64,000 nucleotides of DNA from an uncultured virus (IMG/VR IMGVR_UViG_3300006103_001171) (Duplodnaviria > Heunggongvirae > Uroviricota > Caudoviricetes): IMG/VR virus record IMGVR_UViG_3300006103_001171. One strand, written 5' to 3'. The first letter of the stretch is position 1; every line of letters begins with the position of its first letter. Below are positions 1,280-19,300 of this stretch, piece by piece. The position numbers and the translations under genes were made by a program. A model generated the notes under the pieces. That model did no database searches, was not told the DNA's origin, and worked only from the letters and a program-made list of their open reading frames with translations.

Positions 1280-4165
1280 ATGGCAACTAAAAATATAAAT
1301 GCGGAAAAAATACAAGGTAATTTATCAATTACTTCTGTATCAGCTACAACATATCAAAATTTACCTTTAGACATAAGGGTTACTGGTGGTACTTATTCAG
1401 CTGGTACAGCCACCTTTACCAATAATACTGGTGGAACATTCACCGTTACTGGTTTTAGTACAAGTAATGCAACGCAGTTTACTGGTGGTACTGTTACTGG
1501 TGCGACCCAATTTACTAATGGACTTTCGGCTAATACTATATCAGCAACAACATATTATAATCTACCTTTAGACATAAGGGTTACTGGTGGTACTTATTCA
1601 GCTGGTACAGCAACTTTCACAAATAATACTGGTGGTACATTTACCGTTACTGGGCTTACAACACCATTTAATGGTGGGGTAGTATCTGGTGCGACTCAAT
1701 TTACTGGTGGCCTAACAGCTAATACAATAACAAAATCTGGTGGTACAGCAACACAAATTCTTGTGGCTAATGGTGGTGTTATAAGTGGTGGTACTGGTAT
1801 AAATATATCCGCTGGTACAATATCTGTTACGGGTGTAACTTCTGTTATTGTTCAAGACACTGGTACTGGTAGTACTGTAAGATGTGGTAATAATAACTTA
1901 GCTAGTGGTCTTTGTTCTGGTGCTCTTGCTGGTACTTATAACTGTGCAACAAATGCTAATTCTTTTGTTGGTGGTGGTACACATAATGTTGCTAGTGGTA
2001 CGGCAAGTGCTGTAAATGGTGGTATCTCTAATACATCATCTAATCAGTATTCAACAATAGGTGGTGGTAATACTAATTCGTCATCAGGTTACGCATCAAC
2101 AGTAGGTGGTGGTCATACCAATTCATCATCAGGTTATGCATCAACAGTAAGTGGTGGTTATGGTAATGCATCTGTTGCTTATTATTCAACAGTAGGTGGT
2201 GGGTTAAGTAATACCGCTTCTGGTTATTGTTCATTTATTGGTGGTGGTACTTATAATAGTAGTAAGTGTTTTAATTCAGCACTAATTGGTGGACAAAATA
2301 ATTCATCATCGGGTTATTTTTCAACAGTTGGTGGTGGTAGATTTGTTAAGGCAATAAATGCTTATTCAACAGTTGTTGGTGGGTTAAGTAATTCGGCTTA
2401 CTGTAATTATTCATTTATAGGTGGTGGTAGACACAATAAAATAAGAAAAGATATAAATGGTACTGTATCTTCACCTCTTTGCGGTAGCGGTGCTAGTGTT
2501 ATTGCTGGTGGTCAAGGTAACGCTTTAGTCGGTTATAATAATTTTATTGGGGGTGGTGTGATGAATACTATAGGTTGTGGATTACAAACTTATAATATTA
2601 TTAGTAATTGTAATAATTCAATTTGTGTTCAAGGAAATCAACCACAATTAAATGAACATTATGTTGAATATTATAATAACAGTGATTGTTTAGTATATGG
2701 TGGACGTATAATATATTCATCGTATTATGGAGGTTATTCAATTTTTTCAACAACTTTTTATGCGGGAAACAATGCTGGTGGTAATAAATTATATGATTTA
2801 ACTTCATTAACTAATACCAATAAATGTTATCATCATTCAATAATTGTTGGTGGTAAAATGAATACAATTTCTGGTAAATATAGTCCGAGTTCATTCATTG
2901 GTGGTGGATATAGAAATACCGCTTCTGGTTATTGTTCAATAGTTGTTGGTGGTGGTTATAATTGTTCAAATGGTTCGGGTTCATTTATTGGTGGTGGTGG
3001 TGGTAATAGTATAAGTGGTACGTATAATTGTCAATCGTCAATAGTTGGTGGCCGTAATAATAGTGTTTCTAGTAGTTCTAGTGGGTTTTCATTCATTGGT
3101 GGTGGGACTTGTAATTCAATAAGTGGTTATGATTCTGCTAATTCATTCATTGGTGGTGGTGCTTTTAATAGTATTTCTGGTTGGTACGCCTATTGGTCTA
3201 CAATTAGTGGTGGTTATGGTAATCAGATTACTGGATATAATTCATGTTATTCAACGATAAGTGGTGGTAGGAATAATAGTATTTCTGGATATAATTCAGG
3301 TTGGTCAACGATAAGTGGTGGTAGATTTAATACAATTTCTGGTTGTTATACTCTTTATTCAACAATAGGTGGTGGTCATGGTAATCAGATTACTGGTACA
3401 AATTCACAGTATTCAACAATAAGTGGTGGATATAATAATTATATTAATGGAACAAATTCACAGTATTCAACAATAGGTGGTGGTGTTGGTAATCAAATTT
3501 CTGGACAATATTCATATTATTCAACAATAGGTGGTGGTCATGGTAATCAGATTACTGGTACAAATTCATGTTATTCAACAATATCTGGTGGTAGGGTAAA
3601 TTACATTTCTGGAACTAATTCATGTTATTCAACAATAGGTGGTGGTTACGATAATCAGATTTCTGGAGATAATTCATACCTCTCAACAATAGGTGGTGGT
3701 ATAATTAATACAATTTCTGGTTGTTATACTCTTTATTCAACGATAAGTGGTGGTTATAATAATCAGATTACTGGAACTAATTCACGATATTCAACAATAA
3801 GTGGTGGGATACATAATTATATTAATGGTATAAATTCATTGGGTTCAACGATAAATGGAGGTGTAGGTAATTGTATATGTGGTACATACTCACAATATTC
3901 TACAATAGCTGGTGGTTATAGTAATTGTATTTCTGGGCAATATTCATTTGCTGCTGGATATGGTAATACAGTATCAGGTAGTTACTCAGCAGCTATAGGA
4001 TTTGGGTTAAATGCAACTAGTTGGTGCACTTTATATATAAATAATTTAGTATCACCAACAATACAAACTAAAAATTATACAAATGACACAACAGCCGCTA
4101 CTGGTGGAATACCAGTAGGTGGGGTATATCATACCGCAGGTGTATTAAAAATAAGATTAACATAA
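1280..4165 (+). CDS. Long fibre protein with GGxxN-type beta-helix/beta-roll repeats
   Basis: Two N-terminal LPLDIRVTGGTY modules, then many 15-18-aa repeats (STIGGGxxNxISG). C-terminal motif GGIPVGGVYHTAGVLKIR. Confidence 0.75.
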   Translation: MATKNINAEKIQGNLSITSVSATTYQNLPLDIRVTGGTYSAGTATFTNNTGGTFTVTGFSTSNATQFTGGTVTGATQFTNGLSANTISATTYYNLPLDIRVTGGTYSAGTATFTNNTGGTFTVTGLTTPFNGGVVSGATQFTGGLTANTITKSGGTATQILVANGGVISGGTGINISAGTISVTGVTSVIVQDTGTGSTVRCGNNNLASGLCSGALAGTYNCATNANSFVGGGTHNVASGTASAVNGGISNTSSNQYSTIGGGNTNSSSGYASTVGGGHTNSSSGYASTVSGGYGNASVAYYSTVGGGLSNTASGYCSFIGGGTYNSSKCFNSALIGGQNNSSSGYFSTVGGGRFVKAINAYSTVVGGLSNSAYCNYSFIGGGRHNKIRKDINGTVSSPLCGSGASVIAGGQGNALVGYNNFIGGGVMNTIGCGLQTYNIISNCNNSICVQGNQPQLNEHYVEYYNNSDCLVYGGRIIYSSYYGGYSIFSTTFYAGNNAGGNKLYDLTSLTNTNKCYHHSIIVGGKMNTISGKYSPSSFIGGGYRNTASGYCSIVVGGGYNCSNGSGSFIGGGGGNSISGTYNCQSSIVGGRNNSVSSSSSGFSFIGGGTCNSISGYDSANSFIGGGAFNSISGWYAYWSTISGGYGNQITGYNSCYSTISGGRNNSISGYNSGWSTISGGRFNTISGCYTLYSTIGGGHGNQITGTNSQYSTISGGYNNYINGTNSQYSTIGGGVGNQISGQYSYYSTIGGGHGNQITGTNSCYSTISGGRVNYISGTNSCYSTIGGGYDNQISGDNSYLSTIGGGIINTISGCYTLYSTISGGYNNQITGTNSRYSTISGGIHNYINGINSLGSTINGGVGNCICGTYSQYSTIAGGYSNCISGQYSFAAGYGNTVSGSYSAAIGFGLNATSWCTLYINNLVSPTIQTKNYTNDTTAATGGIPVGGVYHTAGVLKIRLT

Positions 4166-4597: not shown

Positions 4598-5473
4598 ATG
4601 AATATAATTTTTCAAATTAATGGTGGTATGGGTAAGTGTATCATGGCCACCGCAGTATGTGAAGCTATAAAAAAACAATACCCAGATGATACTTTAATTG
4701 TAGTATCTGGCTACCCAGACGTGTTTTTAAATAACCCAAATATTGATAGAACATACGCATTTAATGGGTTTTCTTATTTCTATGAAGATTACATAGAAAA
4801 TAAAAAATTTAAAGTTTTAGCTCACGACCCGTACTTAGAAACAACTCATTTGTTACAAAATGAACACCTTATTATTACATGGTGTAATATGTTTGGTATT
4901 ACTTATAATGGTGAACAACCTAAAATTTATCTTAGTGATAGAGAGAAGAAGTTTTACGGGAATAAGTATGTTTTTGAAAAACCAATCTTATTACTACAAA
5001 CAAATGGTGGTGCAAGTACTGATATGAAATATTCTTGGGCTAGGGATATTCCAGTTGTAGTTGCAGCCTCAGTAATTGATGAATTTAAAGATGCTTATAC
5101 AATTTTACACATAAGAAGAGATGACCAATTCATCTTAGAAAACACAATACCAGTTACAGATAATTTTAGGGCATTGGCAGTATTAATTAGTATTAGTAGA
5201 AAAAGATTATTCTTAGATAGCTTCGCACAACATACAGCAGCTGCTTTAAATATGAATTCAACCGTTTGTTGGATTGCTAATAAGCCAGAAGTATTCGGTT
5301 ATGAATTACACGATAATATCATAGCAAATCATTTTACCGTTAAACCAGAACTTAAGGGTTCATATTTACAAAAATTTAATATTAGTGGCGATTTATTAGA
5401 ATTTCCTTTTAATAGTGAAAAGGAAATCTTTAATATCGAACAAATAATTAATTCAATTAAAAAGCAAAAGTAA
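4598..5473 (+). CDS. GT-B fold glycosyltransferase (GT9/heptosyltransferase-like)
   Basis: N-terminal GGMGKCIMATAVCEAIKKQYP, FLNNPNID and C-terminal FLDSFAQHTAAAL match the GT9 family pattern. Confidence 0.75.
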   Translation: MNIIFQINGGMGKCIMATAVCEAIKKQYPDDTLIVVSGYPDVFLNNPNIDRTYAFNGFSYFYEDYIENKKFKVLAHDPYLETTHLLQNEHLIITWCNMFGITYNGEQPKIYLSDREKKFYGNKYVFEKPILLLQTNGGASTDMKYSWARDIPVVVAASVIDEFKDAYTILHIRRDDQFILENTIPVTDNFRALAVLISISRKRLFLDSFAQHTAAALNMNSTVCWIANKPEVFGYELHDNIIANHFTVKPELKGSYLQKFNISGDLLEFPFNSEKEIFNIEQIINSIKKQK

Positions 5474-6382
5474 TTGCAAAACCCTTTTAAAAATATAAAA
5501 TCATATACCAAACCCAAAAGTAACAATATTGCGGTATGTTCTGTTTTTTTTAATGCTGGTAATTTTACTAAAACAATAATGAATAATCTATATGTGGATA
5601 ATCTTCTTAAAAAAAGTGAAATACCTCATTATATGATTGAATTAATTTATCCAAATCAAAAACCAACATTTATTGAAAGTGAATTTGTATTTCACGTTAA
5701 ATCTAATTCATACATGTTTCATAAAGAAAATTTATTTAACATTTTAGTAAATAATTTACCTAAGCACATAAACAAGATTGTTTGTTTGGATGGTGATGTT
5801 ATTTTTGAGAATAAAGATTGGATAAATGATGTTGATAGCGAATTAGATAAATATGATGTTGTAGTACCGTATCATGATGGTTGTAATTTAGACCCTTATT
5901 TTGATAAGGTCTTATTTCATGCTAAAACGCTTTTAGATATTAGATATGATACTGATGATGGTCCATTTTGTTCTGGTTATGCAATAGCATTCAGACGTAG
6001 TTTTTTTGAAACTATAGGTATGTATGAATATGCTATTTTCGGTGGTGGGGATAAGATGAACTTAGTTAATTATATAAGACGACCAATAATGATTAATTCA
6101 TTTAATTCAACAAAAAAAGATGATTATATTCAAAAACTAAAGTCCTTAAATTTAACATATTCTTATTTAGGTGGTATAGTCTATCATTTATATCATGGTA
6201 ACGCTTTAGATAGAAAGTATTTAGATAGACATGTACTTTTACAAGGTTTACAATTAGACACTGAAATTACAAAAAATGCTGATGGTGTTTTAGAATTTGT
6301 AAACCCACAGAAATATAATAAAATAATGTATGATTATTTCATTGGAAGAAATGAAGATTATATAGACCCAAATTTACTTTAA
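5474..6382 (+). CDS. GT-A fold glycosyltransferase (GT2/GT7-like), TTG start
   Basis: DxD motif (LDGDVIF), FFETIGMYEYAIFGGGD and YHLYHG. Confidence 0.7.
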   Translation: MQNPFKNIKSYTKPKSNNIAVCSVFFNAGNFTKTIMNNLYVDNLLKKSEIPHYMIELIYPNQKPTFIESEFVFHVKSNSYMFHKENLFNILVNNLPKHINKIVCLDGDVIFENKDWINDVDSELDKYDVVVPYHDGCNLDPYFDKVLFHAKTLLDIRYDTDDGPFCSGYAIAFRRSFFETIGMYEYAIFGGGDKMNLVNYIRRPIMINSFNSTKKDDYIQKLKSLNLTYSYLGGIVYHLYHGNALDRKYLDRHVLLQGLQLDTEITKNADGVLEFVNPQKYNKIMYDYFIGRNEDYIDPNLL

Positions 6383-6383
6383 T

Positions 6384-7202
6384 ATGATAGAACAAATATT
6401 TTATCAGAGTTCAATGCCTCGTGCGGGTTCAACTCTATTACAAAACATTTTAGCACAAAATCCAGATATATACGCGACACCAACATCTGGTGTTCTTGAA
6501 TTAATTTTTGCTGCTAGAGGTAATTACACCTCATCACCTGAGTTTAAAGCACAAGACCCTGAATTGATGAAATCAGGATTCCTTAACTTTTGTAAAGAAG
6601 GTATGTATGGATTTTATAATGGGATTACGGATAAAAAGTATGTTATCGATAAGAGTAGAGGGTGGGGAATTCATTATGATTTTTTAAACCTTATACATGG
6701 TAACCCAAAGATTATATGTATGGTTAGGGACCCTAGGGATATATTTACATCAATGGAAAAAAACTTTAGAAAAGCTAGTGATAAAGCAAGTCCGTTGGTT
6801 GATTGGAGTAAAATGCAAGGAACAACGACACCTAAGCGTATTGATATGTGGGTTCAAAATCCACCAGTTGGTATGGCATTTGAACGTTTAGGTGAAATGA
6901 TTAGAATGGGTATTGATAGTAAAATTCATTTTGTAAGATTTGAAGACTTGTGTCTTTATCCAGAACAAACTCTAGGTAAGATATATGCTTATTTAGATAT
7001 TCCATATTTTAAACATGATTTTGATAATATCGAACAAATAACAAAAGAAGATGATGAAGTTTATGGTGTGTATGGTGACCATACTATCAGAACAACACTT
7101 GAACCAGTTACATCTAAAGCTAAGGAAATTCTAGGTAAGGATGTTTGTGATTGGATAATGAATAATTATAAATGGTATAACGATAAATTTAGATACAAAT
7201 GA
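6384..7202 (+). CDS. PAPS-dependent sulfotransferase (Sulfotransfer_3 / TPST-like)
   Basis: 5'-PSB loop SMPRAGSTLL, 3'-PB motif KIICMVRDPRD and VRFEDL. Confidence 0.85.
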   Translation: MIEQIFYQSSMPRAGSTLLQNILAQNPDIYATPTSGVLELIFAARGNYTSSPEFKAQDPELMKSGFLNFCKEGMYGFYNGITDKKYVIDKSRGWGIHYDFLNLIHGNPKIICMVRDPRDIFTSMEKNFRKASDKASPLVDWSKMQGTTTPKRIDMWVQNPPVGMAFERLGEMIRMGIDSKIHFVRFEDLCLYPEQTLGKIYAYLDIPYFKHDFDNIEQITKEDDEVYGVYGDHTIRTTLEPVTSKAKEILGKDVCDWIMNNYKWYNDKFRYK

Positions 7203-7627
7203 TAATTTGGTTAACTGGCCAGCCAAGTTCTGGTAAAACAACAATAGGAAAGGAGTTATTAAAAAGAAAAGAATTTAGTAACGCATTTTTAATTGATGGT
7301 GATAAATTAAGGGAATTATTCAATAATCAAGACTATTCTGAAAAAGGTAGAAGAGAAAATATTGAATTAGCTCAGAATTTAGCTTACTACATTAATGATA
7401 ATTTTAAAACGGTTATCGTTGCAATGGTATCCCCATACAGGGACCAAAGAGAACGTTTTAAGGAAAAAATGGGTGAAGATATTAAAGAATATTATATACA
7501 TACAAGTGAAATTAGAGGTAGGGAAAACTTCCATGTAAGTGATTATGAACCACCATTATTTAATTTTATAGATATCGATACAACAGCAAAAACACCTGAA
7601 GAGTCATCAAAATTAATATCAATTTAA
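7199..7627 (+). CDS. cysC: Adenylylsulfate (APS) kinase, short phage type
   Basis: IWLTGQPSSGKTT P-loop, LIDGDKLR, YSEKGRRENI and VSPYRDQR. Overlaps the sulfotransferase stop (ATGA). Confidence 0.85.
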   Translation: MIIWLTGQPSSGKTTIGKELLKRKEFSNAFLIDGDKLRELFNNQDYSEKGRRENIELAQNLAYYINDNFKTVIVAMVSPYRDQRERFKEKMGEDIKEYYIHTSEIRGRENFHVSDYEPPLFNFIDIDTTAKTPEESSKLISI

Positions 7628-7716: not shown

Positions 7717-10700
7717 ATGGCAAATCAAGTATTCGTTAGTCCAGGTGTTTACACTTCAGAATTAGACCTAACATATGTAACCCGTCAAGTAGGTGTTACA
7801 ACATTAGGGTTGGTCGGTGAAACAACAAAAGGACCAGCTTTTCAACCAATTTTCATTAGTGATTATGGTGGCTTCCAAACATTTTTTGGGGGGTTAGATA
7901 ATACATTAGTAAATGGACCAGATGGTAATGGTGCTCCATTGTATGAGTTACCATACATTGCAAAATCTTACTTATCTCAATCAAATCAGTTATTCGTAAC
8001 AAGGATATTGGGTCTTTCTGGATACCATGCTGGTTTAGCTTGGGGTATCACGCTTAGTGCGGCATTAGACCCGACAACAACTGGTACATCATATGTTTCA
8101 ACTTATACAGCAAATTATACAGTTACTACTGGTGATACTCTTTATAGTATCCAAACAACTGATAGTAATTTAAATGCTTATTATCAACAAAACCCATCAG
8201 CATTTAGCTTTTTGGCTGGTGCAACTACTGGGCAAAGCTATACAATATACATACCACAAGTTAAAAATGGTCTTATATTTAGTGGTGGTTATATTACATT
8301 TAATATTATTTCTGCCAGTGTTACACCATTTATTACTGCTGGTACAGTAACAAATATTTACCCAAATTCTGGTTCATCAACTTTATTAACTTATAAACTT
8401 ACAACAGGTGGTACTCTTACTTCAATTGTATCTACTGATTCATTTGTTAATCAAGTTTATACCGCAACACCTAGTTATTTTAATTTATTTATTACAGCAG
8501 CAACTGGTACAGCACAAAATATACTAATACCACAAACATCAGATGGTACAACATTCTATGGTGGTAATATTAATTCAAAAGTTCTTTCAACTGGTTATAC
8601 AGATGCATCAATACCTGTTTCAGCAAGTTCACCAACTAATTTTACATATACTGCGTCATCAAATAGTAATGTTCTTTATGGTATAACATCTACTGATTCA
8701 TTTGTTAATCAAATTTATGCTGCTAGTGCAAGTAGTTTTAATTTCTTAACTGGTGCTACAATTGGTACACAACAAATTTTAACTGAACCAACATTATTAT
8801 ATGGTGGTAATAACTATAGTGGTGGTTATATAACAATTAATGTTGCTACAACTGGTTACTCTAGTAGCATATTAACTGGTAATTCTATATCACAATTTTT
8901 TGGTACATATTCAGCAAGTACTGGAAATACACTTTATTCAACAACAGCAACTGCTGGTGGTGGTGCTAACGCATATAATCAATATTATCAACAAAATCCA
9001 TCAGCATTTACCTTTATAGCTAGTGGTGTTAGTCAAACAATACAAACCCCAAATGTTTATAACGGTATTCTTTATAGTTACAATACATTAGCTATTACAC
9101 CATATGCAACTGGTTATACAAATGGTGGTAATATAACAGCTGTTGGTAATGCAAATATATACCCAGATACTAGTGGTAATGCTCTATTCTCATATACAGC
9201 TTCAACCACAGCAAATACACTTAGTAGTTTTGTATCAACGGATGCAATAACAAATCAAATTTATGCTGCTAGTGCAAGTAACTTTAACTTCTTAACTGGT
9301 GCTACATTAAATTCAACTGGTTCTTTAGCTACAGCTTATGCTCCAAACGGAATTAATTTTAATTATAGTGGTATTAATTATAATATTAATGTATTAAATT
9401 ATACAACACCAGTAACAAGTGCTATAACTTCTGGATATACCGCTGTATATTCAGCTAGTACTAATGGTATACTTTATTCTACATATAGTCTTAATAATTC
9501 AATATATAACTTAGTTTACGCTGCTAATCCAGTTCCTTTTTACTTCTTAGCAACAGCTAATACTGGTGCAACAAGTAATATTGCTATAACACGCACACAA
9601 ATTGGTGCTTACTTTAGTGGTGGTAATGTAAGTGTAAATGTACTTTCAACTGGTTTTACAAGTCCATCTAGTGTAAATACAGCTGGAACAGTTGGTGTTG
9701 GAAGTAATTACATAACAAATTTAAATGGTGTTGTATCTTCTTACGCATTGACTAATGTATATGGTAACCCAAATTATGTTACTTATTTTAGTGGTTCAGT
9801 ATCACCTTCAGCGTTTACTTTCTTAAATACTGCTAGTACTGGTACTATAACTGGTCCAACATCAAATAACGGTGCTTACTTTACTGGTGGTAGTATTGCA
9901 GTAAGTGTACTTTCAACAGGTTATACAAACCCATCTAGTTTAACAGCATCTACTTCAGTATTTAATGGTACATTCTCTGCAACAACTGGTGGTACACTTA
10001 ATACAACAAGTGCAACTGGTGGTGCTGGTTCAGGTTTATATAACTCAGCTTATGCGGCTACACCAAGTGCATTTAACTTCTTAGCAACTGGTGGTACTTA
10101 TTCAGTTGTAAATGCGCCATCATCGTCTAACGGTGCTAATTTTACTAGTGCAAATACTGTAACAATAGTTGCTTTTGCAACTGGTTATACAAACCCATCT
10201 AGTGCAACAACAGCAACTACACAGTTTACTGGTGTATACTCAGCAAGTACTGGTAATACTCTTTATTCAACAAGTGCAGTTGGTGCTGGTTCAGGTTTAT
10301 ATAACTCAACTTATGCAACTACACCAAGTGCGTTTAACTTCTTAACTGGTGGTACAGGTGGAATTGTAACAATAGGTCAATCATCAAATGGTATTAACTA
10401 TAGTAGTGGTACACTTAATTTAAGTGTTCTTTCAACTGGTTATACAAACCCATCAAGTGGTACAACTGTTAGTACATCAGCTTATACAGCAACGTTCTCG
10501 GCTAATTCAAGTAATTTACTTTACACAACTAGTGGTTCAACACCATTGTATAATAGTACATATAGTGTAAATCCTAATATATTTAACGTAATATCTTCAA
10601 CAGCTACAGGTACAACAGTTAACTTAGCAACAACTTACACACCAAATGGTATTAATTATAGTGGTGCAAATATTAGCGCATATATAGTTTCGACTGGTTA

Positions 10701-13700
10701 TACAAGTCCATCTAGTGCAACTACAATTAGTTCATTTACTGGTACTTACGCAGTTAATTTAGGAAACCACACAATTATTAGTACACCAACATTTAGTACA
10801 CCAATTGCTAATCAAATATATTCAACATACTCAGCTAGTAGCTTTGGTTTTATATATTCAGCAAATAACAATTCTAGTTATGTTGTAAATGTACCTCAAA
10901 CACAAGTTGGTGCGGTTGCTACTAGTGGAAATATGTTAACAACAATTAATAGTATAACACCATCTGGTTCATTTACAAACCCATTATTTAATTATACTGG
11001 TAATACGTTTACGTATACGGCTAACTCAAGTAATGGTAATATTGTTGCTATAAATATTCCAGCGTCTAATTCTGGTACAACATTTTTCTACAATTATGGT
11101 CCTTACTATTTTAATGGTTTTGGTCTTTTATCTCCAGGTCAATCATTAACACTTAATTATAATATTGATTGGTTACAATATAGCCCTAACTATACTAGTT
11201 ACATGGACATTTATATGCTTTCACAAAACTATGTGGTAACGCAAACTGGTACAACTGGTCAATATATTACAGGTACAACAAGTGGTTTCACTAATGGTTA
11301 TGCGATTGCTTATAATAACATTACTGTTGGTGTTGGTGGGAATACGACTATAAATACTACATTATATAATATTACTGGTACAACAACTGGTTTAACTGTA
11401 AGTACTACAGGTTATTATCAATCTGTAACTGGTTCTACTAGTGGTTTAACAACAGTTAACTCTGGTATTTACCAATCAATTACTGGTTCAACAAGTGGTA
11501 CAAGTAGAACTAATTCTGGTTCATATCAAAGTATTCAATATAATATGACTGGTACTAGTAGTGTTAACACTGGTATTTACCAATCAATTACTGGTTCAAC
11601 AAGTGGTACAACTATAATTAGTGGTGGTGTTTATACTTTACTAATTGGTTCAACAAGTGGTACAAGTCAATCATACACTGGTAATTACCAATCAATTACT
11701 GGTTCTACAAGTGGTATTACAACACAATATAGTGGTTATTATCAAAACTTAACTGGTACAACAAATAATGTCACATTAACATATAATGGTTTCTATAGTA
11801 GTATTACTGGTTCTACAAGTGGTAGTAGCTATACTTACTATGGTGATAATGCTGGTGATTTAACTGGTTTAACAACTGGTATAAGTTACGCTTATACTGG
11901 TAGTGGTTATTCGGATGTTGAAGGAAAGATAATAGCACTTTTACGTTCTAGGGCTACGGTTGACGTATCAACTCAATTACCAACATTCCAAATTGCTAAT
12001 GTAACTGATATTAACTTTAGTTCAACTGCAACTGGTGCAACAAAAAATCCTTTAGGTATATTTAATTTGACTGGTACATCTGTAACGCAAGGTATATTTA
12101 ATTATGAACTTTCATTTGATGTTACTAAAAAAGATTACGTTCCTAGAGCATTAGGTAGAATGGCTTTTGATAAAAAGACATCAGTATTCGTTGAGGAATT
12201 TTACGGTAATGTATTTACTAATGACTTTAATGAAGGTAAAATTTATGGTATTAACCAAAGTTTAATTAATTACTCTTCACCAGGTGAATTTGGTCCATTT
12301 GATAACTATTTACAACAATATCAATCTGCTGTTACCCCATATGTGGTATCGGAAGTTAAGGGTAACCAAGTTATTAGATTATTTAGATTCTGGACAATAT
12401 CAGATGGTAATATGGCTAATATGGAAATTAAAGTTTCAATTGCTAATATTAGACCTGATACTCAAGAATTTGATGTACAAATTAGAGATTATAACGATAC
12501 AGATGCTAGACCTAAAATCCTAGAAGCTTATAGTCGTTGTAATTTAGACCCAACTTCAAATAATTACATTGGTCAATTAATTGGTACATATGATGGTGCT
12601 TATGCGTCAAAATCTTCTTACGTACTTGTTGAATTAGATGTGAACTCAGATACAACTGATGCTTTCCCAGCTGGTTTTGTTGGGTACCCAGTAAGAGATT
12701 ACCAAACTAGTGGTAATGATAGTGTATTAACACCAGATATTATGTATTATAAGGCTTACGGTACATATGATAACCCACGTAAATTCTATTTAGGTTTAAA
12801 TGATACTGTTGGTATCGATACAGACTTCTTTGATTACAAAGGTTTACCAATAAAAGGTTTAGAATATAGCGAATGGACTGGACTTACACCAGGTTATCAC
12901 ATGGATATTAATGCTAGTGCGGTAACAATTGCTGATATTGCTGAATACATAAATGGTGGTTCTGGAGCGACTTATAACCCAATATTTAAATTTGATACTG
13001 GTGACGCACCATTCCAAAGTGAAGCTGGTGTTCAAGGTACGCCATACGCAAACTTATATGCTCGTAAATTTACACTTGTACCTTATGGTGGTTTCGATGG
13101 TTGGGACATTTATAGAACAAGAAGAACGAACTTGGACACTTACGATATTAAGGGTAAGGGTGGTCAAACTGGTTTAAGTTATGGAGCATTTTCTAAGTAT
13201 CCTCTTCAAGATGGTTCAGAAGGTCTTACATCAGATTACTACGCATATTTAGAAGGTATTTGGACATTTATAAATCCTGAAGCTGTTAATATAAATGTGT
13301 TTGCAACACCAGGTATTGATACTTTCGATAACCAATCATTGGTTAACCAAACTATTGAAATGGTTGAGAATAACAGAGCTGACTCATTGTACATAGTTAC
13401 AACACCAGATTCTGATTCTACTGGTACTCCATTGACGGTTTCAAATGTGGTTGATGAGCTTAATGGTAATTTTGATAGTAACTATACAGCAACGTATTGG
13501 CCTTGGGTTCAAATATTTGATTCTGAAAACACAACATACATATATGTTCCACCAACAAGAGATGTTGTAAGAAATATCGCTTTAACTGATAACATTTCAT
13601 TCCCATGGTTTGCTGTGGCTGGTGTTAACAGAGGTTCGGTAGATTGTATTAAAGCTAGAGTTAAATTAACGCAAACAGATAGGGATACACTTTATGAAAA

Positions 13701-14097
13701 TAGAATTAATCCTATCGCAACATTTGCTTCAAATGGTGTTAATATCTGGGGTAATAAAACACTTCAAGTTGCTGATACTTATCTTAATAGAATCAACATT
13801 AGAAGACTTTTATTACAAGCAAGAAAACTTATTTCTGCTGTTTCAATCAGATTGTTGTTCGAACAAAATGATGCTGTGGTTAGAAATCAATTCTTATCAC
13901 TTGTTAACCCAATATTGGATAACATTAGAAGCGAAAGAGGTCTTTCTGATTTTAGAGTTGTGTTAAATAATAGCCCAGAAGATTTTGATAATAATCAATT
14001 AACTGGTCAAATATTCCTTAAACCAACAACAGCGTTAGAATTCATTCAAATTCAATTTGTTATACTTCCATCAGGTGCATCATTTGATAACATTTAA
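7717..14097 (+). CDS. Contractile tail sheath protein with a ~1275-aa repetitive insertion
   Basis: N-terminal FVSPGVYTSELD and GETTKGPAF. C-terminal sheath motifs YWPWV, PWFAVAGVNRG, LYENRINPI, IWGNKTL, RINIRRLL, FEQND and PTTALEFI. Confidence 0.95.
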   Translation: MANQVFVSPGVYTSELDLTYVTRQVGVTTLGLVGETTKGPAFQPIFISDYGGFQTFFGGLDNTLVNGPDGNGAPLYELPYIAKSYLSQSNQLFVTRILGLSGYHAGLAWGITLSAALDPTTTGTSYVSTYTANYTVTTGDTLYSIQTTDSNLNAYYQQNPSAFSFLAGATTGQSYTIYIPQVKNGLIFSGGYITFNIISASVTPFITAGTVTNIYPNSGSSTLLTYKLTTGGTLTSIVSTDSFVNQVYTATPSYFNLFITAATGTAQNILIPQTSDGTTFYGGNINSKVLSTGYTDASIPVSASSPTNFTYTASSNSNVLYGITSTDSFVNQIYAASASSFNFLTGATIGTQQILTEPTLLYGGNNYSGGYITINVATTGYSSSILTGNSISQFFGTYSASTGNTLYSTTATAGGGANAYNQYYQQNPSAFTFIASGVSQTIQTPNVYNGILYSYNTLAITPYATGYTNGGNITAVGNANIYPDTSGNALFSYTASTTANTLSSFVSTDAITNQIYAASASNFNFLTGATLNSTGSLATAYAPNGINFNYSGINYNINVLNYTTPVTSAITSGYTAVYSASTNGILYSTYSLNNSIYNLVYAANPVPFYFLATANTGATSNIAITRTQIGAYFSGGNVSVNVLSTGFTSPSSVNTAGTVGVGSNYITNLNGVVSSYALTNVYGNPNYVTYFSGSVSPSAFTFLNTASTGTITGPTSNNGAYFTGGSIAVSVLSTGYTNPSSLTASTSVFNGTFSATTGGTLNTTSATGGAGSGLYNSAYAATPSAFNFLATGGTYSVVNAPSSSNGANFTSANTVTIVAFATGYTNPSSATTATTQFTGVYSASTGNTLYSTSAVGAGSGLYNSTYATTPSAFNFLTGGTGGIVTIGQSSNGINYSSGTLNLSVLSTGYTNPSSGTTVSTSAYTATFSANSSNLLYTTSGSTPLYNSTYSVNPNIFNVISSTATGTTVNLATTYTPNGINYSGANISAYIVSTGYTSPSSATTISSFTGTYAVNLGNHTIISTPTFSTPIANQIYSTYSASSFGFIYSANNNSSYVVNVPQTQVGAVATSGNMLTTINSITPSGSFTNPLFNYTGNTFTYTANSSNGNIVAINIPASNSGTTFFYNYGPYYFNGFGLLSPGQSLTLNYNIDWLQYSPNYTSYMDIYMLSQNYVVTQTGTTGQYITGTTSGFTNGYAIAYNNITVGVGGNTTINTTLYNITGTTTGLTVSTTGYYQSVTGSTSGLTTVNSGIYQSITGSTSGTSRTNSGSYQSIQYNMTGTSSVNTGIYQSITGSTSGTTIISGGVYTLLIGSTSGTSQSYTGNYQSITGSTSGITTQYSGYYQNLTGTTNNVTLTYNGFYSSITGSTSGSSYTYYGDNAGDLTGLTTGISYAYTGSGYSDVEGKIIALLRSRATVDVSTQLPTFQIANVTDINFSSTATGATKNPLGIFNLTGTSVTQGIFNYELSFDVTKKDYVPRALGRMAFDKKTSVFVEEFYGNVFTNDFNEGKIYGINQSLINYSSPGEFGPFDNYLQQYQSAVTPYVVSEVKGNQVIRLFRFWTISDGNMANMEIKVSIANIRPDTQEFDVQIRDYNDTDARPKILEAYSRCNLDPTSNNYIGQLIGTYDGAYASKSSYVLVELDVNSDTTDAFPAGFVGYPVRDYQTSGNDSVLTPDIMYYKAYGTYDNPRKFYLGLNDTVGIDTDFFDYKGLPIKGLEYSEWTGLTPGYHMDINASAVTIADIAEYINGGSGATYNPIFKFDTGDAPFQSEAGVQGTPYANLYARKFTLVPYGGFDGWDIYRTRRTNLDTYDIKGKGGQTGLSYGAFSKYPLQDGSEGLTSDYYAYLEGIWTFINPEAVNINVFATPGIDTFDNQSLVNQTIEMVENNRADSLYIVTTPDSDSTGTPLTVSNVVDELNGNFDSNYTATYWPWVQIFDSENTTYIYVPPTRDVVRNIALTDNISFPWFAVAGVNRGSVDCIKARVKLTQTDRDTLYENRINPIATFASNGVNIWGNKTLQVADTYLNRINIRRLLLQARKLISAVSIRLLFEQNDAVVRNQFLSLVNPILDNIRSERGLSDFRVVLNNSPEDFDNNQLTGQIFLKPTTALEFIQIQFVILPSGASFDNI
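8071..11259 (+). repeat. Twelve diverged ~85-95-aa Thr/Ser/Gly/Tyr-rich units inside the sheath
   Basis: Units carry Y..xPSAFxFL-like cores and most end in TG(Y/F)(T/S), at 8590, 8851, 9109, 9649, 9916, 10180, 10435 and 10693. Confidence 0.8.
11260..11901 (+). repeat. Twelve ~18-aa units (YQSITGSTSG-type) inside the sheath
   Basis: Exact 54-bp period for the Tyr codons at 11416, 11470, 11524, 11578, 11632, 11686, 11740 and 11794, with more diverged units on both sides. Confidence 0.85.
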
Positions 14098-14217: not shown

Positions 14218-15774
14218 ATGAAAATAAAGTTAAATTGTATAAACTGTAATAATGATTTTGAAACGGAGTTTAAATATAGAAGTAAGAAGTTTTGTGGTAG
14301 GAAGTGTTTTTTTGAATATTCTAAAGAGCATAAAACTATTGGTAGAAAAATAGATGAAGAAATAAGGGAAAAAAGAATTTGTTTAATTTGTAATAAAGAA
14401 TTTGAGTGTAAGAAAAAACAAGAAAATAAAATGTGTTCTAATGAGTGTAGAAAAGAATGGAACTCTATAGAAGAAAATAAGTCTAATAGAATAAAATTAA
14501 GTAAAGATACATTATTAATAAATCATGGTGTTGATTCAATGTTTAAGAAAATTGAATATAAAGCTAACCGTAATCAAATTTTCTTAGATAAAATAGGTGT
14601 TATAAATCCGATGAAAGATAAGTTAATTGTAAATAAACTACAAAAAACTCTGAATGAAAAACAAATTAAAAACTTACTACCAAAACTTAATGAACATAAT
14701 ATAATATTACTTGATGAATACAGTGTAAATAAAAGTGGTTCAACATCAATGTCTTATAATTTTAAATGTAAAAAGTGTGAAAATATATTTTCAAGTACCG
14801 TGCTTGGTTCTGGTAAGATACCAATTTGTAGAAAATGTACACCGTTAGAAAAAAATTCAAAAATTGAAGAAGTAATAAAGGATTTTTTAAATTTAAAAAA
14901 TATTAAACACTTAGATAACAGTAGAAAAATACTTAACGGTAAAGAGATTGATATATTCTTGAGCGATTTTAATTTAGGTATAGAGGTAGACGGCAATTAT
15001 TTTCATAGTGAAATAAGTGGTGAAAAAGATAGTAAATATCATTTAAGTAAAACAAAATTAGCACATGAAAAAAATATAAAATTAATACACATATTTGAAG
15101 ACGAAATACTATATAAAAAAGACATAGTATTATCTAGATTGAGTAATCAGTTAAATTTAAATAATATAAGATACTTTGCAAGAAATTGTGAAATTAGAAT
15201 TGTAAGTAAAAAAGAATCTACTTTATTTTTAGATAATAATCATATTCAAGGAAATTCTATTGATTTAATAAGATTAGGGTTATATTATAATAATATATTA
15301 ATTTCATTAATGACATTTGGTAAAGAGCGAAAAGCTTTAGGTAATATAGAAACTGAGGATACTTATGAATTGGTTAGATTTTGTAATTTAATAAATTCTA
15401 ATGTTGTTGGTGGGTTTTCTAAACTTTTAAAACATTTTATTGTAACATATAAACCTAAAAAAATTGTAACTTACGCTGATATTAGATGGTCTGGATTAAA
15501 TGAATTAGATACTGTTTATATAAAAAATGGTTTTAAGTATATTAAAAATACATCACCAAATTATTGGTACTTAAAAGTTGGACAATATAATCATAGATAT
15601 CATAGATATAATTTTAGAAAAGATATTCTAGTTAAAGAAGGTTTTGATAAAAACATGTCTGAATTTGAGATTATGAAATTAAAGGAATTTGATAGAATAT
15701 GGGACTGTGGAAATATGAAATTTGAATGGACTAGAAATTCAATTTGTAATCATGAACTCAGGTGCATCATTTGA
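14218..15774 (+). CDS. Free-standing Hef-like homing endonuclease (Zn-finger repeats, PD-(D/E)XK/EDxHD-like nuclease, C-terminal GNAT/Mom-like region)
   Basis: CxxC...KFCGRKC repeats; EIDIF...GIEVDGNYFH...IHIFEDE; YELVRFC...GGFSKLL...TYADIRWS...IWDCG. Confidence 0.75.
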   Translation: MKIKLNCINCNNDFETEFKYRSKKFCGRKCFFEYSKEHKTIGRKIDEEIREKRICLICNKEFECKKKQENKMCSNECRKEWNSIEENKSNRIKLSKDTLLINHGVDSMFKKIEYKANRNQIFLDKIGVINPMKDKLIVNKLQKTLNEKQIKNLLPKLNEHNIILLDEYSVNKSGSTSMSYNFKCKKCENIFSSTVLGSGKIPICRKCTPLEKNSKIEEVIKDFLNLKNIKHLDNSRKILNGKEIDIFLSDFNLGIEVDGNYFHSEISGEKDSKYHLSKTKLAHEKNIKLIHIFEDEILYKKDIVLSRLSNQLNLNNIRYFARNCEIRIVSKKESTLFLDNNHIQGNSIDLIRLGLYYNNILISLMTFGKERKALGNIETEDTYELVRFCNLINSNVVGGFSKLLKHFIVTYKPKKIVTYADIRWSGLNELDTVYIKNGFKYIKNTSPNYWYLKVGQYNHRYHRYNFRKDILVKEGFDKNMSEFEIMKLKEFDRIWDCGNMKFEWTRNSICNHELRCII

Positions 15775-16320: not shown

Positions 16321-19300
16321 ATGGCAACAAAAATATTGTTAACAACTGAACAACATGAAAAATTAATGAATCATCTTGTATCAGAAATGGTTACAAACAC
16401 CAATGAATTAATTAATGAAAATGGTACCATAAATGAAAGTGTATGGGAAAAAGTTAAATATGGTCTTTCAAAATTAGGTAGATATAAAGCTAATGGTAAA
16501 ATTTTTGGAAAGGGAAAAATAGACAAAGAAGCTGGTGCTAAAATTCAAGCAATTATTGATAAAGAAGGTAATGAACTTATCAAGAATTTAAATGCTAGTA
16601 TTAAAGAAACTAATCCAGAATTCCCTAATAACGAAAAAGGTGACCAATTCTTAAATACTATAATGGAAATTGCAGCTGTTTATGATTCTGTAATCGATGG
16701 TGCTAAGAAAGGTACAATACCAGCAGACGCTGCTAATGGTATTATTAATGACCTTAGAGATTATGTTAAGAAATTTTTAGATATTGATTTAAAGGCAGCT
16801 TATTCAGTTGTTGATGAGATTCAAGGTAATACTCTTGAATTAACAGAAGAAGAAGCTATGAGCTTAGATGAAGCTTGGGGCCTAGATGAAGAAGATGGTC
16901 CAAGTGGTATAAGAAAAAAACCAAATCCAGAAGATATATATGCTAAAGGTGAACCTGAAGACATATCAAAACCAATTGATTTAAATCCAAATGATACCAG
17001 ACCAGTTAAAGCAAATTCACAAGTTGCCACAACCAATCAAAATACTGGCGTTGCCAACACTAATCAAAATACTGGCGTTGCTACAACTAATCAAAATACT
17101 GGCGTTGCCAACACTAATCAAAATACTGGCGTTGCTACAACTAATCAAAATACTGGTGTTGCCAACACTAATAATAGTAATATTATAGATAAAGGTACTG
17201 GTAAGGCTAGTACTAGAAATAAAGATATAACAGATATTGATTACGAGGATATACCAAATAATCAAGCATCAAATGGTGGTGCTGCTAGTTCTGCTGGTGG
17301 TATTGGGAATGGTGCAGCTGCTAGTTCTGCTGGTGGTATTGGGAATGGTGCAGCTGCTAGTTCTGCTGGTGGTGGTGCAGCTGGTGGTGGAAAACAAGGT
17401 TTAAACGCTAAGGATGTTAGAGCTGGCTTACAAGCTAAAAGAGGTGCTGGTGATGATTTTGCTAGTACTAGAATGAATACACTTAAATCAAATAAATTAC
17501 CAATGACACTTGCTGGTATTGGTGCTAGTTTGGGTGCTTTTAGTTGGCTTGTTAATACAGATTGGTTTAAACACTTATTTGATGTCGTTAGTAAAAATCC
17601 ATCTATTGAAATGGTTAACAAACAGGTTGCTAGTAATTCAGATATTATTGGTAATATAAAACCAGGTCAAGGTCTTACTCAACTTATGAATGCGATGAAC
17701 CATGCTGGTATAACACCTAAAACAACACCAGAACAATTTTTAGAACAAGTTAAAATACTAGGTGGTGGTGACGTAAATGCTGGTATTAATGCTTTAGCAG
17801 CTAAAGGTGGTATATTTGTTAATCCAGATGCCGCTAAATCAGTATTGACTGATATAGCAAAAAATCCACATGGTCATGGTGATACTCTAGGTCAAATATT
17901 TAAAGGAAAATGGGCTGGTACTGGTAAATCAGTGGGTGATATGCTTACTTGTAAGGACATGGGCCAAGTAAAAGGACTTATATCTACTACAATTACTAAA
18001 GCAGTACCAACACTAGTTATGAAAACAGCTATTAAGACTGGTGCTGGATATGCTGCTGCGAAGGGATTAGGAGCCATTCTAGGCCCTATTGGTTTAGCTG
18101 CTGTGGGTACGGGTGCATTAGTTAAAATAATGCGTATGAAAGGCCAAAAACAGTCAAGGGCTAAAACTCTTAACGACTTGTATCAATCATTAAGAAACAT
18201 AGATGGTGGTGTTGGTTTAGTTGAACCAGAAACAGAAACAGTAAGTGTTGATGCTGTATCAAATCCACAAGAATTAAGTAATATAGCTAGTAGTGATAAT
18301 GGTGGTGATAAAGGTGGTGATAAAGGTGCTAACGTAGCTAATGCTGATACGCAAAAGGGTGGTGACAATAAGATGTCACAAGTTAATGATGACCTTTATA
18401 ATTCTATTAAAAATTTATTTAAATTTGTTGTTAATAATAGAAAAAATTTAGGTGTTCGTTCTGCTAATAATGTTGGTACAGCTAATGCTGATAAACTTGT
18501 GAAGGGTCAAAAGGTTAGTTGGACCAAAAAGGATGGTTCTAATACTACTGGAACAATTGTTGGACCAAGTCAAAACCCAAATGAAACAATTGTTAAAACT
18601 CAAAATGGTAATCAAATTTCTATTAAGACAATAAAACTAACACCAAGTACAAGTCTTAATGAAGGTAAGTACATAAAAGATAAGAGACTTATTCAATTTT
18701 TACAGAAAAGCCTATCATACGATAAATTAAAATCGTTTGAAGACTTTATGAATAGAGTTGAAATAATCAGGAATAAAATTAAAAAGATTGACCCAATGGG
18801 TGATAAGGCTATTCAAAATTTTATGTCTGAATATAGTTCAAACCCAATTATGTCAACTGATTTTCAAAAATTATTCTCAATAGACCCTAATAATCCACAA
18901 GCTGTAAATGCGCTTAAGGCTTTTATTGATGATATTTTTATTACGGTTTATTCTGGTAAATTCAAATATGGTAACATGATTGATAAGATGGCTGGAATCG
19001 GTGGAAGTATAAATTCATTGGAAGAAGAAGCTGGGTATAATTTTAAAGAACCAAATAAATCATTTAAAAAAGATGCTCAAAATAGAGGTTCATTTAAAAA
19101 TAATTTGGTTAAGTTCTTATCAACAACAATTAATTTGTTCCAATATATGAATAAATTAAAGGATAGTGGTAAATTAAATTCTGGTAAAAAAACAAGTAAT
19201 TCTGGTTCACAAAAACCACAAGCACAACCACAACAAAATAAAGAACCACAAGCACAACAAAATAAAGAACCACAAGCACAACAAAATAAAGAACCACAAC

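What the first reader, a model, noticed from the sequence alone, without database searches (positions are those of the whole stretch)
8071..11901. Russian-doll tail sheath: 12 outward units followed by 12 return strands
Seen: between normal N- and C-terminal sheath regions lies a ~1275-aa insert. By my count it has 12 diverged ~86-aa units followed by 12 ~18-aa beta-strand-like units (YQSITGSTSG-type, 54-bp period). Pairing them in reverse order matches the odd ones: atypical unit 7 (GSNYITNLNG) pairs with atypical YQSIQYNMTG, and atypical unit 11 pairs with YNNITVGVGG. Inference: each domain is inserted into a loop of the previous one, so the chain runs out through 12 incomplete beta-domains and returns donating one strand to each. 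Each sheath subunit would then carry a long filament anchored at both ends, giving a 'hairy' tail encoded within the sheath gene. Growth would need paired duplications at two separate sites. I do not know of a described sheath with this architecture.
Basis: partly seen in the sequence, partly recalled or inferred. Interest (0 to 1): 0.9.

Follow-up and report, generated by a model that had tools for sequence, protein, structure and literature searches.

The report
Twelve-deep nested domains in tail sheath
The tail-sheath protein of a large uncultured phage carries twelve copies of one small domain, each most likely inserted inside the previous one like Russian dolls, which would give every sheath subunit a long out-and-back arm and make the tail bristly.

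Summary
Window 7717-14097 (+) is one intact 2126-aa tail-sheath gene. Between its N core (aa 1-120) and C core (aa 1398-2126) lie 12 diverged ~86-aa units, then 12 units on an 18-aa lattice.

The Russian-doll reading is supported, mainly by comparison. About 107 unique close relatives have exactly one long unit directly followed by one short unit, as a single contiguous ~105-aa domain. Rarer relatives read 2:2, 4:4, 5:5 and 7:7 by hand, always all long units first, then all short ones.

In the window, similarity among long units mirrors similarity among short units in reverse order (r=0.60, P=0.001). The same-order pairing does not (r=0.15).

An AlphaFold model of a 2:2 relative puts the last short unit, a beta-hairpin with pLDDT above 90, into the first long unit's domain.

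Weak points: direct folding of the window's inner four levels failed (pLDDT 33), a split-domain docking test gave only weak support, and automatic counts are exact in 12 of 21 multi-level relatives (the rest differ by 1).

Nested sheath domains are textbook (T4 gp18), so this is a new variant: one domain self-nested twelve deep. This scan's earlier notes report 6-8-level analogues on other DNA.

The parts
7717..14097 (+). tail sheath gene, 2126 aa, intact
   Evidence: ORF; Pfam PF04984 and PHROG 23; C-terminal 280 aa align to T4 gp18 chains, E 1e-29 to 1e-32
7717..8076 (+). N-terminal part of the conserved sheath core (aa 1-120), ending in the exit motif ..AWGITLSAALDPT
   Evidence: 85-87% identical to relatives of every insert size
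8077..8352 (+). long unit U1 (outermost); mirror partner s12
   Evidence: closest to the single unit of one-unit relative L018
8353..8640 (+). long unit U2; partner s11
8641..8895 (+). long unit U3; partner s10
8896..9183 (+). long unit U4 (canonical YSAST first strand); partner s9 (canonical YQSITGSTSG)
9184..9435 (+). long unit U5; partner s8
9436..9702 (+). long unit U6 (canonical first strand); partner s7 (canonical)
9703..9960 (+). long unit U7 (atypical first strand YITNLNG); partner s6 (atypical IQYNMTG)
9961..10224 (+). long unit U8 (canonical); partner s5 (canonical)
10225..10482 (+). long unit U9 (canonical; 61% identical to U8); partner s4 (canonical; 67% identical to s5)
10483..10734 (+). 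long unit U10; partner s3
10735..11007 (+). long unit U11 (atypical YAVNLGN); partner s2 (atypical ITVGVGG)
11008..11262 (+). long unit U12, the most diverged and most aromatic (20% F/W/Y): proposed tip domain, contiguous with s1
11263..11310 (+). short unit s1 (returns to U12)
11311..11361 (+). short unit s2
   Evidence: below the matrix threshold
11362..11415 (+). short unit s3
11416..11469 (+). short unit s4
11470..11523 (+). short unit s5
11524..11577 (+). short unit s6
   Evidence: below the matrix threshold
11578..11631 (+). short unit s7
11632..11685 (+). short unit s8
11686..11739 (+). short unit s9
11740..11793 (+). short unit s10
   Evidence: below the matrix threshold
11794..11847 (+). 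short unit s11
11848..11907 (+). short unit s12 (returns to U1), directly followed by the re-entry motif YSDVEGKIIALLRSR
   Evidence: weak-support docking with U1
11908..14097 (+). C-terminal part of the sheath core (aa 1398-2126) with stop codon
   Evidence: 48-76% identical to relatives; Pfam and PDB matches

Best explanation
The gene encodes a contractile-tail sheath subunit. At the outward-facing insertion point of its core it carries a twelve-level self-nested stack of one ~105-residue alpha/beta domain. Each domain consists of a long N-terminal part (U, ~86 aa) and a C-terminal beta-hairpin (s, 17-18 aa).

In most relatives the two parts are contiguous and form one domain. Here, every further copy sits between the U and the s of the copy before it. 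The chain therefore runs outward through U1 to U12 and turns in the only contiguous domain (U12+s1). That domain is a diverged, aromatic-rich tip. The chain then runs back through s1 to s12, and each hairpin completes the domain of U(13-i).

Shown: the unit counts, their order, the 1:1 rule across relatives, the mirror-order similarity, and a model in which s is an integral part of the domain.

Inferred: the stack forms a double-tethered arm a few tens of nm long on each of the six subunits of every sheath ring. It stays outside the contacts that drive contraction. It acts as a length-variable adhesive bristle (almost uncharged, 33% Ser+Thr) with a binding tip. Levels are gained or lost by separate unequal recombination in the U array and in the s array, with selection keeping the two numbers equal.
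For: Sheath identity and context:
- Pfam, PHROG and PDB matches; tube, baseplate and tape-measure genes lie downstream.

Base state:
- Of 133 unique full-length close relatives, 107 score one U and one s.
- In the printed inserts, s (..ITGTTTGVTVYYSG..) directly follows U and directly precedes the re-entry motif.

Graded series, always U^N then s^N, read by hand:
- 2:2 (L140, L162, L166), 4:4 (P0015, L155, L157), 5:5 (P0002), 7:7 (P0003, P0005, P0007 and their group), 12:12 (window).
- Automatic counts: 21 of 21 unique sequences over 1000 aa have |U-s| <= 1, 12 of 21 are equal, and the window scores 12/12.
- L162 and L166 belong to the window's own sub-lineage.

Mirror pairing in the window:
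- Mantel correlation between the U-similarity and s-similarity matrices is r=0.598 under the reverse-order map (P=0.001, 100,000 permutations). It is r=0.148 (P=0.28) under the same-order map.
- The reverse map shifted by +/-1 gives 0.39 and 0.04. With units 2-11 only, r=0.575, P=0.004.
- The four units with a [YF]SA[ST]T first strand (U4, U6, U8, U9) map exactly onto the four exact YQS[IV]TGSTSG hairpins (s9, s7, s5, s4). The hydrophobic variants U7 and U11 map onto s6 and s2. These motif classes were chosen after looking.

Structure:
- AlphaFold2 model of the insert of 2:2 relative L140, with 77 one-unit relatives as alignment. U1 has pLDDT 78-97 and the outer hairpin s2 has pLDDT 91-97 as strand 230-246. 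The 125 residues between them are below 50.
- All 50 of 50 listed structural matches are single small domains aligned over 60-91 residues, yet they span model residues ~20 to ~240. So U1 and s2 form one domain.

Split-domain docking of the window's U1 with s12:
- ipSAE 0.38 (runs 0.31-0.52) against a best control of 0.00, verdict 'weak support'.
- That mark was reached by 116 of 157 solved complexes and 2 of 215 mismatched pairs. At 0.60 or under it was reached by only 18 of those 157 and by both mismatches.
- The runs agree in at least 75% of contacts; partner pLDDT is at least 54.

Precedent:
- Sheath domains are organised as insertions of one another (PMC3004832 section 12; PMC6088184 section 12; passages read).
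Against: - The direct fold of the window's inner four levels (aa 837-1251, 13 homologue rows) failed: mean pLDDT 32.9. There is therefore no structural model of the window's own nesting.
- My first Mantel run, with s12 one residue out of register, was not significant for the mirror map (r 0.27-0.34, P about 0.1). It nominally favoured the same-order map (r 0.43-0.55, P 0.04-0.06). The result depends on unit registers, although it holds without s1 and s12.
- The same test in relatives is weak: mirror r 0.09, 0.85 and 0.57 (P 0.40, 0.049, 0.07) for three related 7:7 forms; 0.42 (P 0.12) for 5:5; 0.19 (P 0.33) for 4:4, where the same-order map scored higher.
- Automatic counts are exact in only 12 of 21 multi-level sequences. 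The innermost pair is often missed, so the exact 1:1 rule rests partly on reading by eye.
- In the L140 model the outer pairing is largely carried by the alignment, and the inner domain is unresolved.
- The docking pass is weak.
- Nothing here shows that the stack is extended rather than folded back on the sheath, nor what it binds.
Confidence: 0.85

Rival explanations
1. Beads plus solenoid: the 12 long units are self-sufficient tandem domains, and the 12 short units form a separate 18-residue-per-turn beta-solenoid or hairpin stack that merely links the array back to the core.
For: The short units are very regular, with an 18-aa period typical of solenoid coils. No confident model of the window's own array exists.
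Against: In the 107 unique relatives scored as one-unit forms, a lone short unit cannot be a solenoid, and in the model of a 2:2 relative aligned to 77 such forms the outer short unit is a high-confidence hairpin inside the domain. Unit numbers track each other from 1 to 12. Mirror-order similarity is present. Each 18-aa unit has only one aliphatic position, unlike hexapeptide coils, and Pfam lists no repeat family at E <= 0.1.
Confidence: 0.07
2. The nested topology is the same, but the stack is not a free bristle. The twelve domains lie along the sheath surface or bind arms of neighbouring subunits. They form an outer coat or mesh that stabilises the extended tail, or must be shed or rearranged on contraction.
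For: Extra sheath domains have been proposed to cement tails (PMC9230969 discussion, passages read). The arm is almost uncharged (1.4% D/E/K/R against 18% in the core) and could self-associate.
Against: Relatives do without it: one level is the norm, and 2, 4, 5, 7 and 12 occur in otherwise 64-87% identical cores. That fits an optional appendage better than a structural layer. One relative displays an ice-binding-like domain (PF11999, listed for P0014) at the same site. In T4 the outermost domain makes no subunit contacts (PMC3004832).
Confidence: 0.2
3. Artefact: a mis-assembled repeat or a decaying gene.
For: Repeats can be mis-assembled.
Against: The units are only 12-61% identical, so they are not collapsible repeats. 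The frame is open over 6378 nt. The gene is identical in L002 and L196 and differs by one codon in L001.
Confidence: 0.01

Closest known systems
'Russian doll' domain organisation of contractile sheath proteins (T4 gp18: domain I inside II inside III inside IV; diffocin CD1363) - PMC3004832 section 12 and PMC6088184 section 12, passages read
   Same: The N- and C-terminal parts form the core. Extra domains are insertions of one another and point outward. The window's C core aligns to gp18 residues 357-653.
   Different: There, two to four unrelated domains are nested. Here, one domain family is nested in itself twelve times, adding 1277 aa.
Type 3 multi-domain sheaths (Evseev et al. 2022, PMC9230969; passages read)
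   Same: The paper describes additional domains 'formed by ... two regions', one of them the returning part of the chain, with more domains in larger phages.
   Different: The highest number reported there is 'five and more' domains, mostly Ig-like. It describes no iterated self-nesting and no graded 1-12 series. The base domain here is alpha/beta with only weak fold matches (best Z 5.1; Foldseek has none at E <= 0.001).
Geovibrio thiophilus flagellin outer domains (PMC11532411; passage read)
   Same: [quoted passage not shown]
   Different: Two levels rather than twelve, in a different protein family and a different domain.
'Hairy' jumbo phages such as vB_PcaM_CBB, phAPEC6 and Atu_ph07 (search listing and abstracts only)
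   Same: Whisker-like structures along a contractile tail.
   Different: The abstracts I saw do not say that the sheath gene encodes the hairs. Here the proposed bristle is part of the sheath polypeptide. No micrograph exists for this phage.
This scan's own earlier notes on other genomes: 6-, 7- and 7-level self-nested sheath domains and an 8-level nested fibre tip
   Same: Same architecture rule: N incomplete units followed by N return pieces.
   Different: Other DNA and other domains. These are unchecked AI notes. The present case is deeper (12) and comes with a 1-2-4-5-7-12 family series.

Membership tests
Phage tail sheath protein (Pfam PF04984 / PF17482, PHROG 23) | C-terminal sheath domains match the family profiles | tested here: met
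   PF04984 scores 44.1 bits against a cut-off of 31.4. PF17482 scores 18.3 bits, below its cut-off of 26.9. PHROG 23 has E 1.3e-54. T4 gp18 chains have E ~1e-29 to 1e-32.
Phage tail sheath protein | Encoded beside the tail tube and other contractile-tail genes | tested here: met
   Tube (PHROG 4542, E 2.4e-27), baseplate hub and tape-measure matches lie downstream.
Russian-doll (nested-insertion) sheath architecture | The core is made of the N- and C-terminal segments, with the extra domains between them | tested here: met
   Aa 1-120 and aa 1398-2126 align collinearly with relatives of 922-1643 aa. All the length difference lies between them.
Russian-doll (nested-insertion) sheath architecture | An extra domain is built from an outgoing and a returning chain segment, with another domain between | tested here: inconclusive
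   Met in the model of 2:2 relative L140. For the window itself the fold failed, and only indirect evidence and a weak docking pass exist.
Tandem self-contained repeat domains (beads on a string) | Each repeat is a complete domain, and the repeat number is free of any second element | tested here: not met
   The long unit is always accompanied by an equal (+/-1 by automatic count) number of short units. In the model the short unit is part of the domain.
Beta-solenoid repeats for the 18-aa units | A repeat family profile match, or several regularly spaced aliphatic positions per coil | tested here: inconclusive
   No Pfam repeat family at E <= 0.1. One aliphatic position per unit by inspection. 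No structure of the block is available.

The most novel reading that the evidence does not exclude
This would be the deepest recursive self-insertion of a protein domain that I could find: a genetically encoded, double-tethered 12-domain filament on every sheath subunit. Its length is tuned in nature (1, 2, 4, 5, 7, 12 levels) by matched gain of units at two distant sites in the gene. It would turn the contractile tail into a bottle-brush whose almost charge-free bristles end in a specialised binding tip. If so, self-nesting is a general route by which loop insertions, which must return to their origin, can still build long fibres. 'Hairy' tails could then be encoded by the sheath gene itself.
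Probability: 0.55. Interest if true: 0.85.

Novelty: new variant of a known kind. Interest (0 to 1): 0.72.

Why it matters
Domain insertion into a loop normally limits what can be displayed, because the inserted chain must come back to where it left. Iterated self-nesting solves this: the chain goes out through N half-domains and comes back completing each one. That gives a rod with two covalent tethers at every joint.

A natural series from 1 to 12 levels in otherwise similar sheaths offers three things:
- a ready-made system to study how nested domains fold and how matched repeat numbers are kept at two sites;
- a way to ask what tail bristles do for large aquatic phages (adhesion, spacing, shielding);
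- a scaffold of adjustable length for displaying modules on phage tails. One relative already displays an ice-binding-like domain at this site.

Tried and rejected
1. A profile of the 12 long units (A1) was searched against 1.84 billion representative proteins. It gave 3 hits with E <= 0.001, all unrelated repetitive proteins, and did not recover the sheath family itself. This says nothing about where else the domain occurs.

2. A word-indexed search with the insert (aa 837-1251) among proteins shorter than 1169 aa gave no hit at E <= 0.001. The low-complexity composition is probably to blame.

3. Counting short units with hmmsearch was noisy and under-counted adjacent units. A walk along the lattice stopped at atypical units. 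I settled on first-to-last matrix hits divided by the median spacing.

4. The first Mantel test used a mis-registered s12 and was superseded. Both are reported.

5. AlphaFold2 on window aa 837-1251 failed, with pLDDT 32.9.

6. The complex prediction verdict was only 'weak support'. No contacts were given.

7. The fold of the base domain remains unplaced. VIA-align against 48,161 chains gave a best Z of 5.1 (longin, roadblock and PAS-like alpha/beta domains). Foldseek on the PDB gave nothing at E <= 0.001. These are weak, generic likenesses only.

8. The ESM Atlas search with the tip domain gave a best score of 0.81, which is chance level.

9. A pairwise global alignment to one-unit relative L018 put its hairpin on s11 rather than s12. 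It does not pin U1 to s12.

10. I looked for a two-unit super-repeat in the U array to match the 108-nt period of s5-s10. From the identity matrix, lag-1 and lag-2 identities of U3-U8 are alike (about 32% each), so it is not supported.

11. The phage collection (50,697 records) holds no record that covers 80% of the protein. Matches are to the C core only.

12. Literature searches that found no paper on an iterated self-nested sheath domain. Only the open-access full-text library was searched.


Full report
WHAT IS THERE

Window 7717-14097 (+) is a single open frame of 2126 codons. Its last ~290 residues match Pfam Phage_sheath_1 (E 2.6e-11) and PHROG 23 'tail sheath' (E 1.3e-54). They also match solved T4-type sheath chains (gp18 residues 357-653, E about 1e-29 to 1e-32).

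A tail tube gene and genes with baseplate-hub and tape-measure matches follow downstream, interspersed with two HNH/homing-endonuclease-like genes. The gene is letter-identical in two other fetched records (L002, and L196, which lies in a 343-kb contig). It differs by one codon in a third (L001). The array is therefore neither an assembly artefact nor a decaying gene.

THE REPEATS

Between a conserved N-terminal segment (aa 1-120) and a conserved C-terminal segment (aa 1398-2126) lie 1277 residues with a very different make-up. They are 33% Ser+Thr and 1.4% charged residues, against 18% charged in the core, and they contain no cysteine.

The first 1062 residues of the insert are twelve units of 84-96 aa that align with each other at 12-61% identity. 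U8 and U9 are the closest pair, and U12 is the most diverged. The last 215 are twelve units on a strict 18-aa lattice.

A position weight matrix trained only on the single short unit of one-unit relatives scores 9 of these 12 lattice sites above a threshold that no second site reaches in those relatives. It scores nothing above threshold elsewhere in the protein. The three sites it misses are s2, s6 and s10, the visibly atypical ones. Within the window the long-unit profile finds nothing significant outside this gene.

THE FAMILY SUPPLIES THE KEY

A search with the C core found 313 related proteins of 1169-3721 aa with E <= 0.001. Of these, 120 were listed, and 15 are at least 64% identical in the core. 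Scans of viral and metagenome contigs added 229 loci.

Of 133 unique full-length close relatives, 107 are scored as one long unit plus one short unit. In these ~945-aa sheaths the short unit (consensus ..ITGTTTGVTVYYSG..) directly follows the long unit. It directly precedes the re-entry motif Y[SA]DVE..L..LLRSR. The ancestral or common state is thus one contiguous ~105-aa domain, and the 'short unit' is simply its C-terminal end.

The rarer long forms keep the same two elements but sort them into two blocks. Reading the sequences by eye gives:
- 2:2 in L140, L162 and L166;
- 4:4 in P0015, L155 and L157;
- 5:5 in P0002;
- 7:7 in the P0003-P0013 group and its loci;
- 12:12 in the window.

One relative (P0014) has an ice-binding-like domain (PF11999, as listed for it) ahead of a 1:1 domain at the same site.

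Automatic counting used profile hits for U, and first-to-last matrix hits divided by the median spacing for s. It gives |U-s| <= 1 for 21 of 21 unique sequences over 1000 aa, equality for 12 of 21, and 12/12 for the window. Spearman rho over all 133 is 0.83.

The misses are mostly the innermost pair, which is the most diverged in every multi-level form. Seven one-level-sized sequences were mis-scored: five with the unit split into two hits, and two with a stray matrix hit. I found no form with clearly unequal numbers.

PAIRING ORDER IN THE WINDOW

If U(i) and s(13-i) belong to one domain, they should share history or co-evolve. I tested this with a Mantel test between the 12x12 similarity matrices:
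- reverse-order map: r=0.598, P=0.001 from 100,000 permutations;
- same-order map: r=0.148, P=0.28;
- reverse map shifted by one unit: r=0.39 or 0.04;
- leaving out the outermost and innermost pairs: r=0.575, P=0.004.

The signal is strongest for the first ~28 columns of U, which hold its first strands.

Concretely, the four units whose first strand reads [YF]SA[ST]T (U4, U6, U8, U9) are the mirror partners of the four exact YQS[IV]TGSTSG hairpins (s9, s7, s5, s4). The two units with hydrophobic substitutions there (U7, U11) mirror the two hairpins with hydrophobic substitutions (s6, s2). These motif classes were chosen after looking.

Caveats:
- My first run had s12 one residue out of register. 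It gave a non-significant mirror correlation (r 0.27-0.34) and a nominally better same-order one (r 0.43-0.55, P 0.04-0.06).
- In the smaller relatives the test has little power. Mirror r was 0.09, 0.85 and 0.57 for three related 7:7 forms, 0.42 for 5:5, and 0.19 for 4:4, where the same-order map scored higher.

STRUCTURE PREDICTION

Folding the window's inner four levels (aa 837-1251) with 13 homologue rows failed, with mean pLDDT 32.9.

I then folded the insert of the 2:2 relative L140 (261 aa) with 77 one-unit relatives as alignment. MAFFT aligned their U to U1 and their s to the outer hairpin s2, leaving a 125-residue gap over U2+s1. This gave:
- pLDDT 78-97 for U1;
- pLDDT 91-97 for s2, which forms strand 230-246;
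- pLDDT below 50 for the uncovered inner part.

In a structure search against 48,161 chains, all 50 listed matches are small single domains aligned over only 60-91 residues. Yet they span model residues ~20 to ~240. So in the model U1 and s2 make one compact alpha/beta domain with another ~125 residues inserted between them.

The fold likeness itself is weak and generic: best Z 5.1 to longin, roadblock and PAS-like domains, and nothing from Foldseek at E <= 0.001. The outer pairing in this model leans on the alignment, so it shows that s is an integral part of the domain rather than proving the order independently.

Docking the window's own U1 (aa 107-212) with s12 plus the re-entry segment (aa 1376-1412), each with its alignment, gave ipSAE 0.38 (0.31-0.52) against 0.00 for three controls. 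The verdict was 'weak support'. That mark was reached by 116 of 157 solved complexes and 2 of 215 mismatches. At 0.60 or under it was reached by only 18 of those 157 and by both mismatches. The runs agree in at least 75% of contacts, and partner pLDDT is at least 54.

HOW IT MOST LIKELY WORKS

Shown: the same domain occurs once, contiguous, in most relatives. In the long forms its N parts and C hairpins are separated into two equal-numbered blocks, and in the window their similarities are mirror-ordered.

The only simple topology that satisfies this, with no long return linker anywhere in the sequence, is recursive insertion of each copy between the U and s of the previous one. The chain goes out through U1-U12, turns in the contiguous tip domain U12+s1, and returns through s1-s12.

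Inferred: the following points are inference or recall, not tested here.
- With ~3 nm per ~105-aa domain (my estimate), the arm would be some 35-40 nm long, tethered by two strands at every joint.
- T4 has six subunits per 40.6-Å ring (PMC3004832). With an 884-aa tape-measure-like protein and the recalled rule of ~1.5 Å per residue, the tail would carry on the order of 200 such arms.
- In T4 the outermost nested domain protrudes and makes no subunit contacts (PMC3004832). An appendage here need not disturb contraction.
- Three observations suggest a sticky, length-variable bristle for surface or glycan adhesion: the near absence of charge, the Ser/Thr/Asn/Tyr-rich surface, and the aromatic-rich tip (20% F/W/Y in U12), which is diverged in every long relative. 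The display of an ice-binding-like module at the same site in P0014 points the same way. A stabilising outer mesh is the main functional rival.
- Growth cannot come from one tandem duplication, which would give U-s-U-s. Separate unequal recombination in the U and s arrays, with selection restoring equal numbers, is my inference. The U8/U9 (61%) and s5/s4 (67%) pairs look like the latest such gain.

COMPARISON WITH WHAT IS KNOWN

Nested 'Russian doll' domains are the textbook description of sheath proteins. In T4 gp18, domain I sits inside II inside III inside IV. Diffocin CD1363 and relatives are described the same way (PMC3004832 and PMC6088184, passages read).

A survey of 112 modelled sheaths describes extra domains made of an outgoing and a returning chain segment, with 'five and more' domains at most (PMC9230969, passages read). 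A flagellin has one outer domain duplicated into a loop of itself (PMC11532411, passage read). Whiskered jumbo-phage tails are known from micrographs (listing and abstracts only).

What I did not find in print is one domain nested in itself many times, or a graded series of such forms (searches; open-access full texts only).

This scan's own earlier, unchecked notes report 6-, 7- and 7-level self-nested sheath domains and an 8-level fibre tip in other genomes. The scan has therefore met the principle before on other DNA. The present case is the deepest and has the clearest family series.

VERDICT

It is a new variant of a known kind.

Noticed in passing
window 4598-7627: Four genes lie directly upstream of the sheath: two without family matches, a sulfotransferase (PF13469, E 3e-19) and an APS-kinase-like protein (PF01583, E 2e-17). 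Apart from the window's own copies, three of the four (not the 5474-6382 ORF) recur upstream of only one fetched locus, the 2:2 relative L162 of the same sub-lineage. They may modify the Ser/Thr-rich arm, for example by sulfation or glycosylation. This is untested.
   Followed up: partly
P0014 (1177-aa relative), residues ~120-355: The same insertion site carries an ice-binding-like domain (PF11999, as precomputed in the hit table). It is flanked by Thr-rich linkers and sits ahead of a normal 1:1 domain. The site therefore also displays foreign modules.
   Followed up: no
window 11008-11310 and the innermost units of P0002, P0003, P0015, L140: In every multi-level form the innermost (tip) domain is the most diverged and is rich in aromatic residues (20% F/W/Y in the window's U12). 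This suggests a specialised distal binding domain. The ESM Atlas search with it gave nothing above chance.
   Followed up: partly
window 8077-11907: The 1277-aa insert has only 1.4% charged residues (none at all in U7-U11) against 18% in the sheath core. It has 33% Ser+Thr and no cysteine.
   Followed up: yes
window 14218-15774 and 20203-21093: Two HNH/homing-endonuclease-like genes lie between the sheath and tube genes and after the tube gene. The first has homologues directly downstream of the sheath in many relatives (49 loci by tblastn).
   Followed up: partly
P0016-P0120 (44-48% identical sheaths of 1170-1375 aa): More distant members of the family carry other, non-repetitive inserts of roughly 350-530 aa at the same site, some of them cysteine-rich. 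These also end in a hairpin-like ..YSG....Y.Y.G.. element before the re-entry motif.
   Followed up: no
L196 (locus from a 343-kb contig): The identical sheath gene lies in a contig of 343 kb, so the phage is probably a jumbo phage. Large ORFs in the window without any family match: 1280-4165 (961 aa), 16321-19446 (1041 aa) and 25569-30248 (1559 aa).
   Followed up: no
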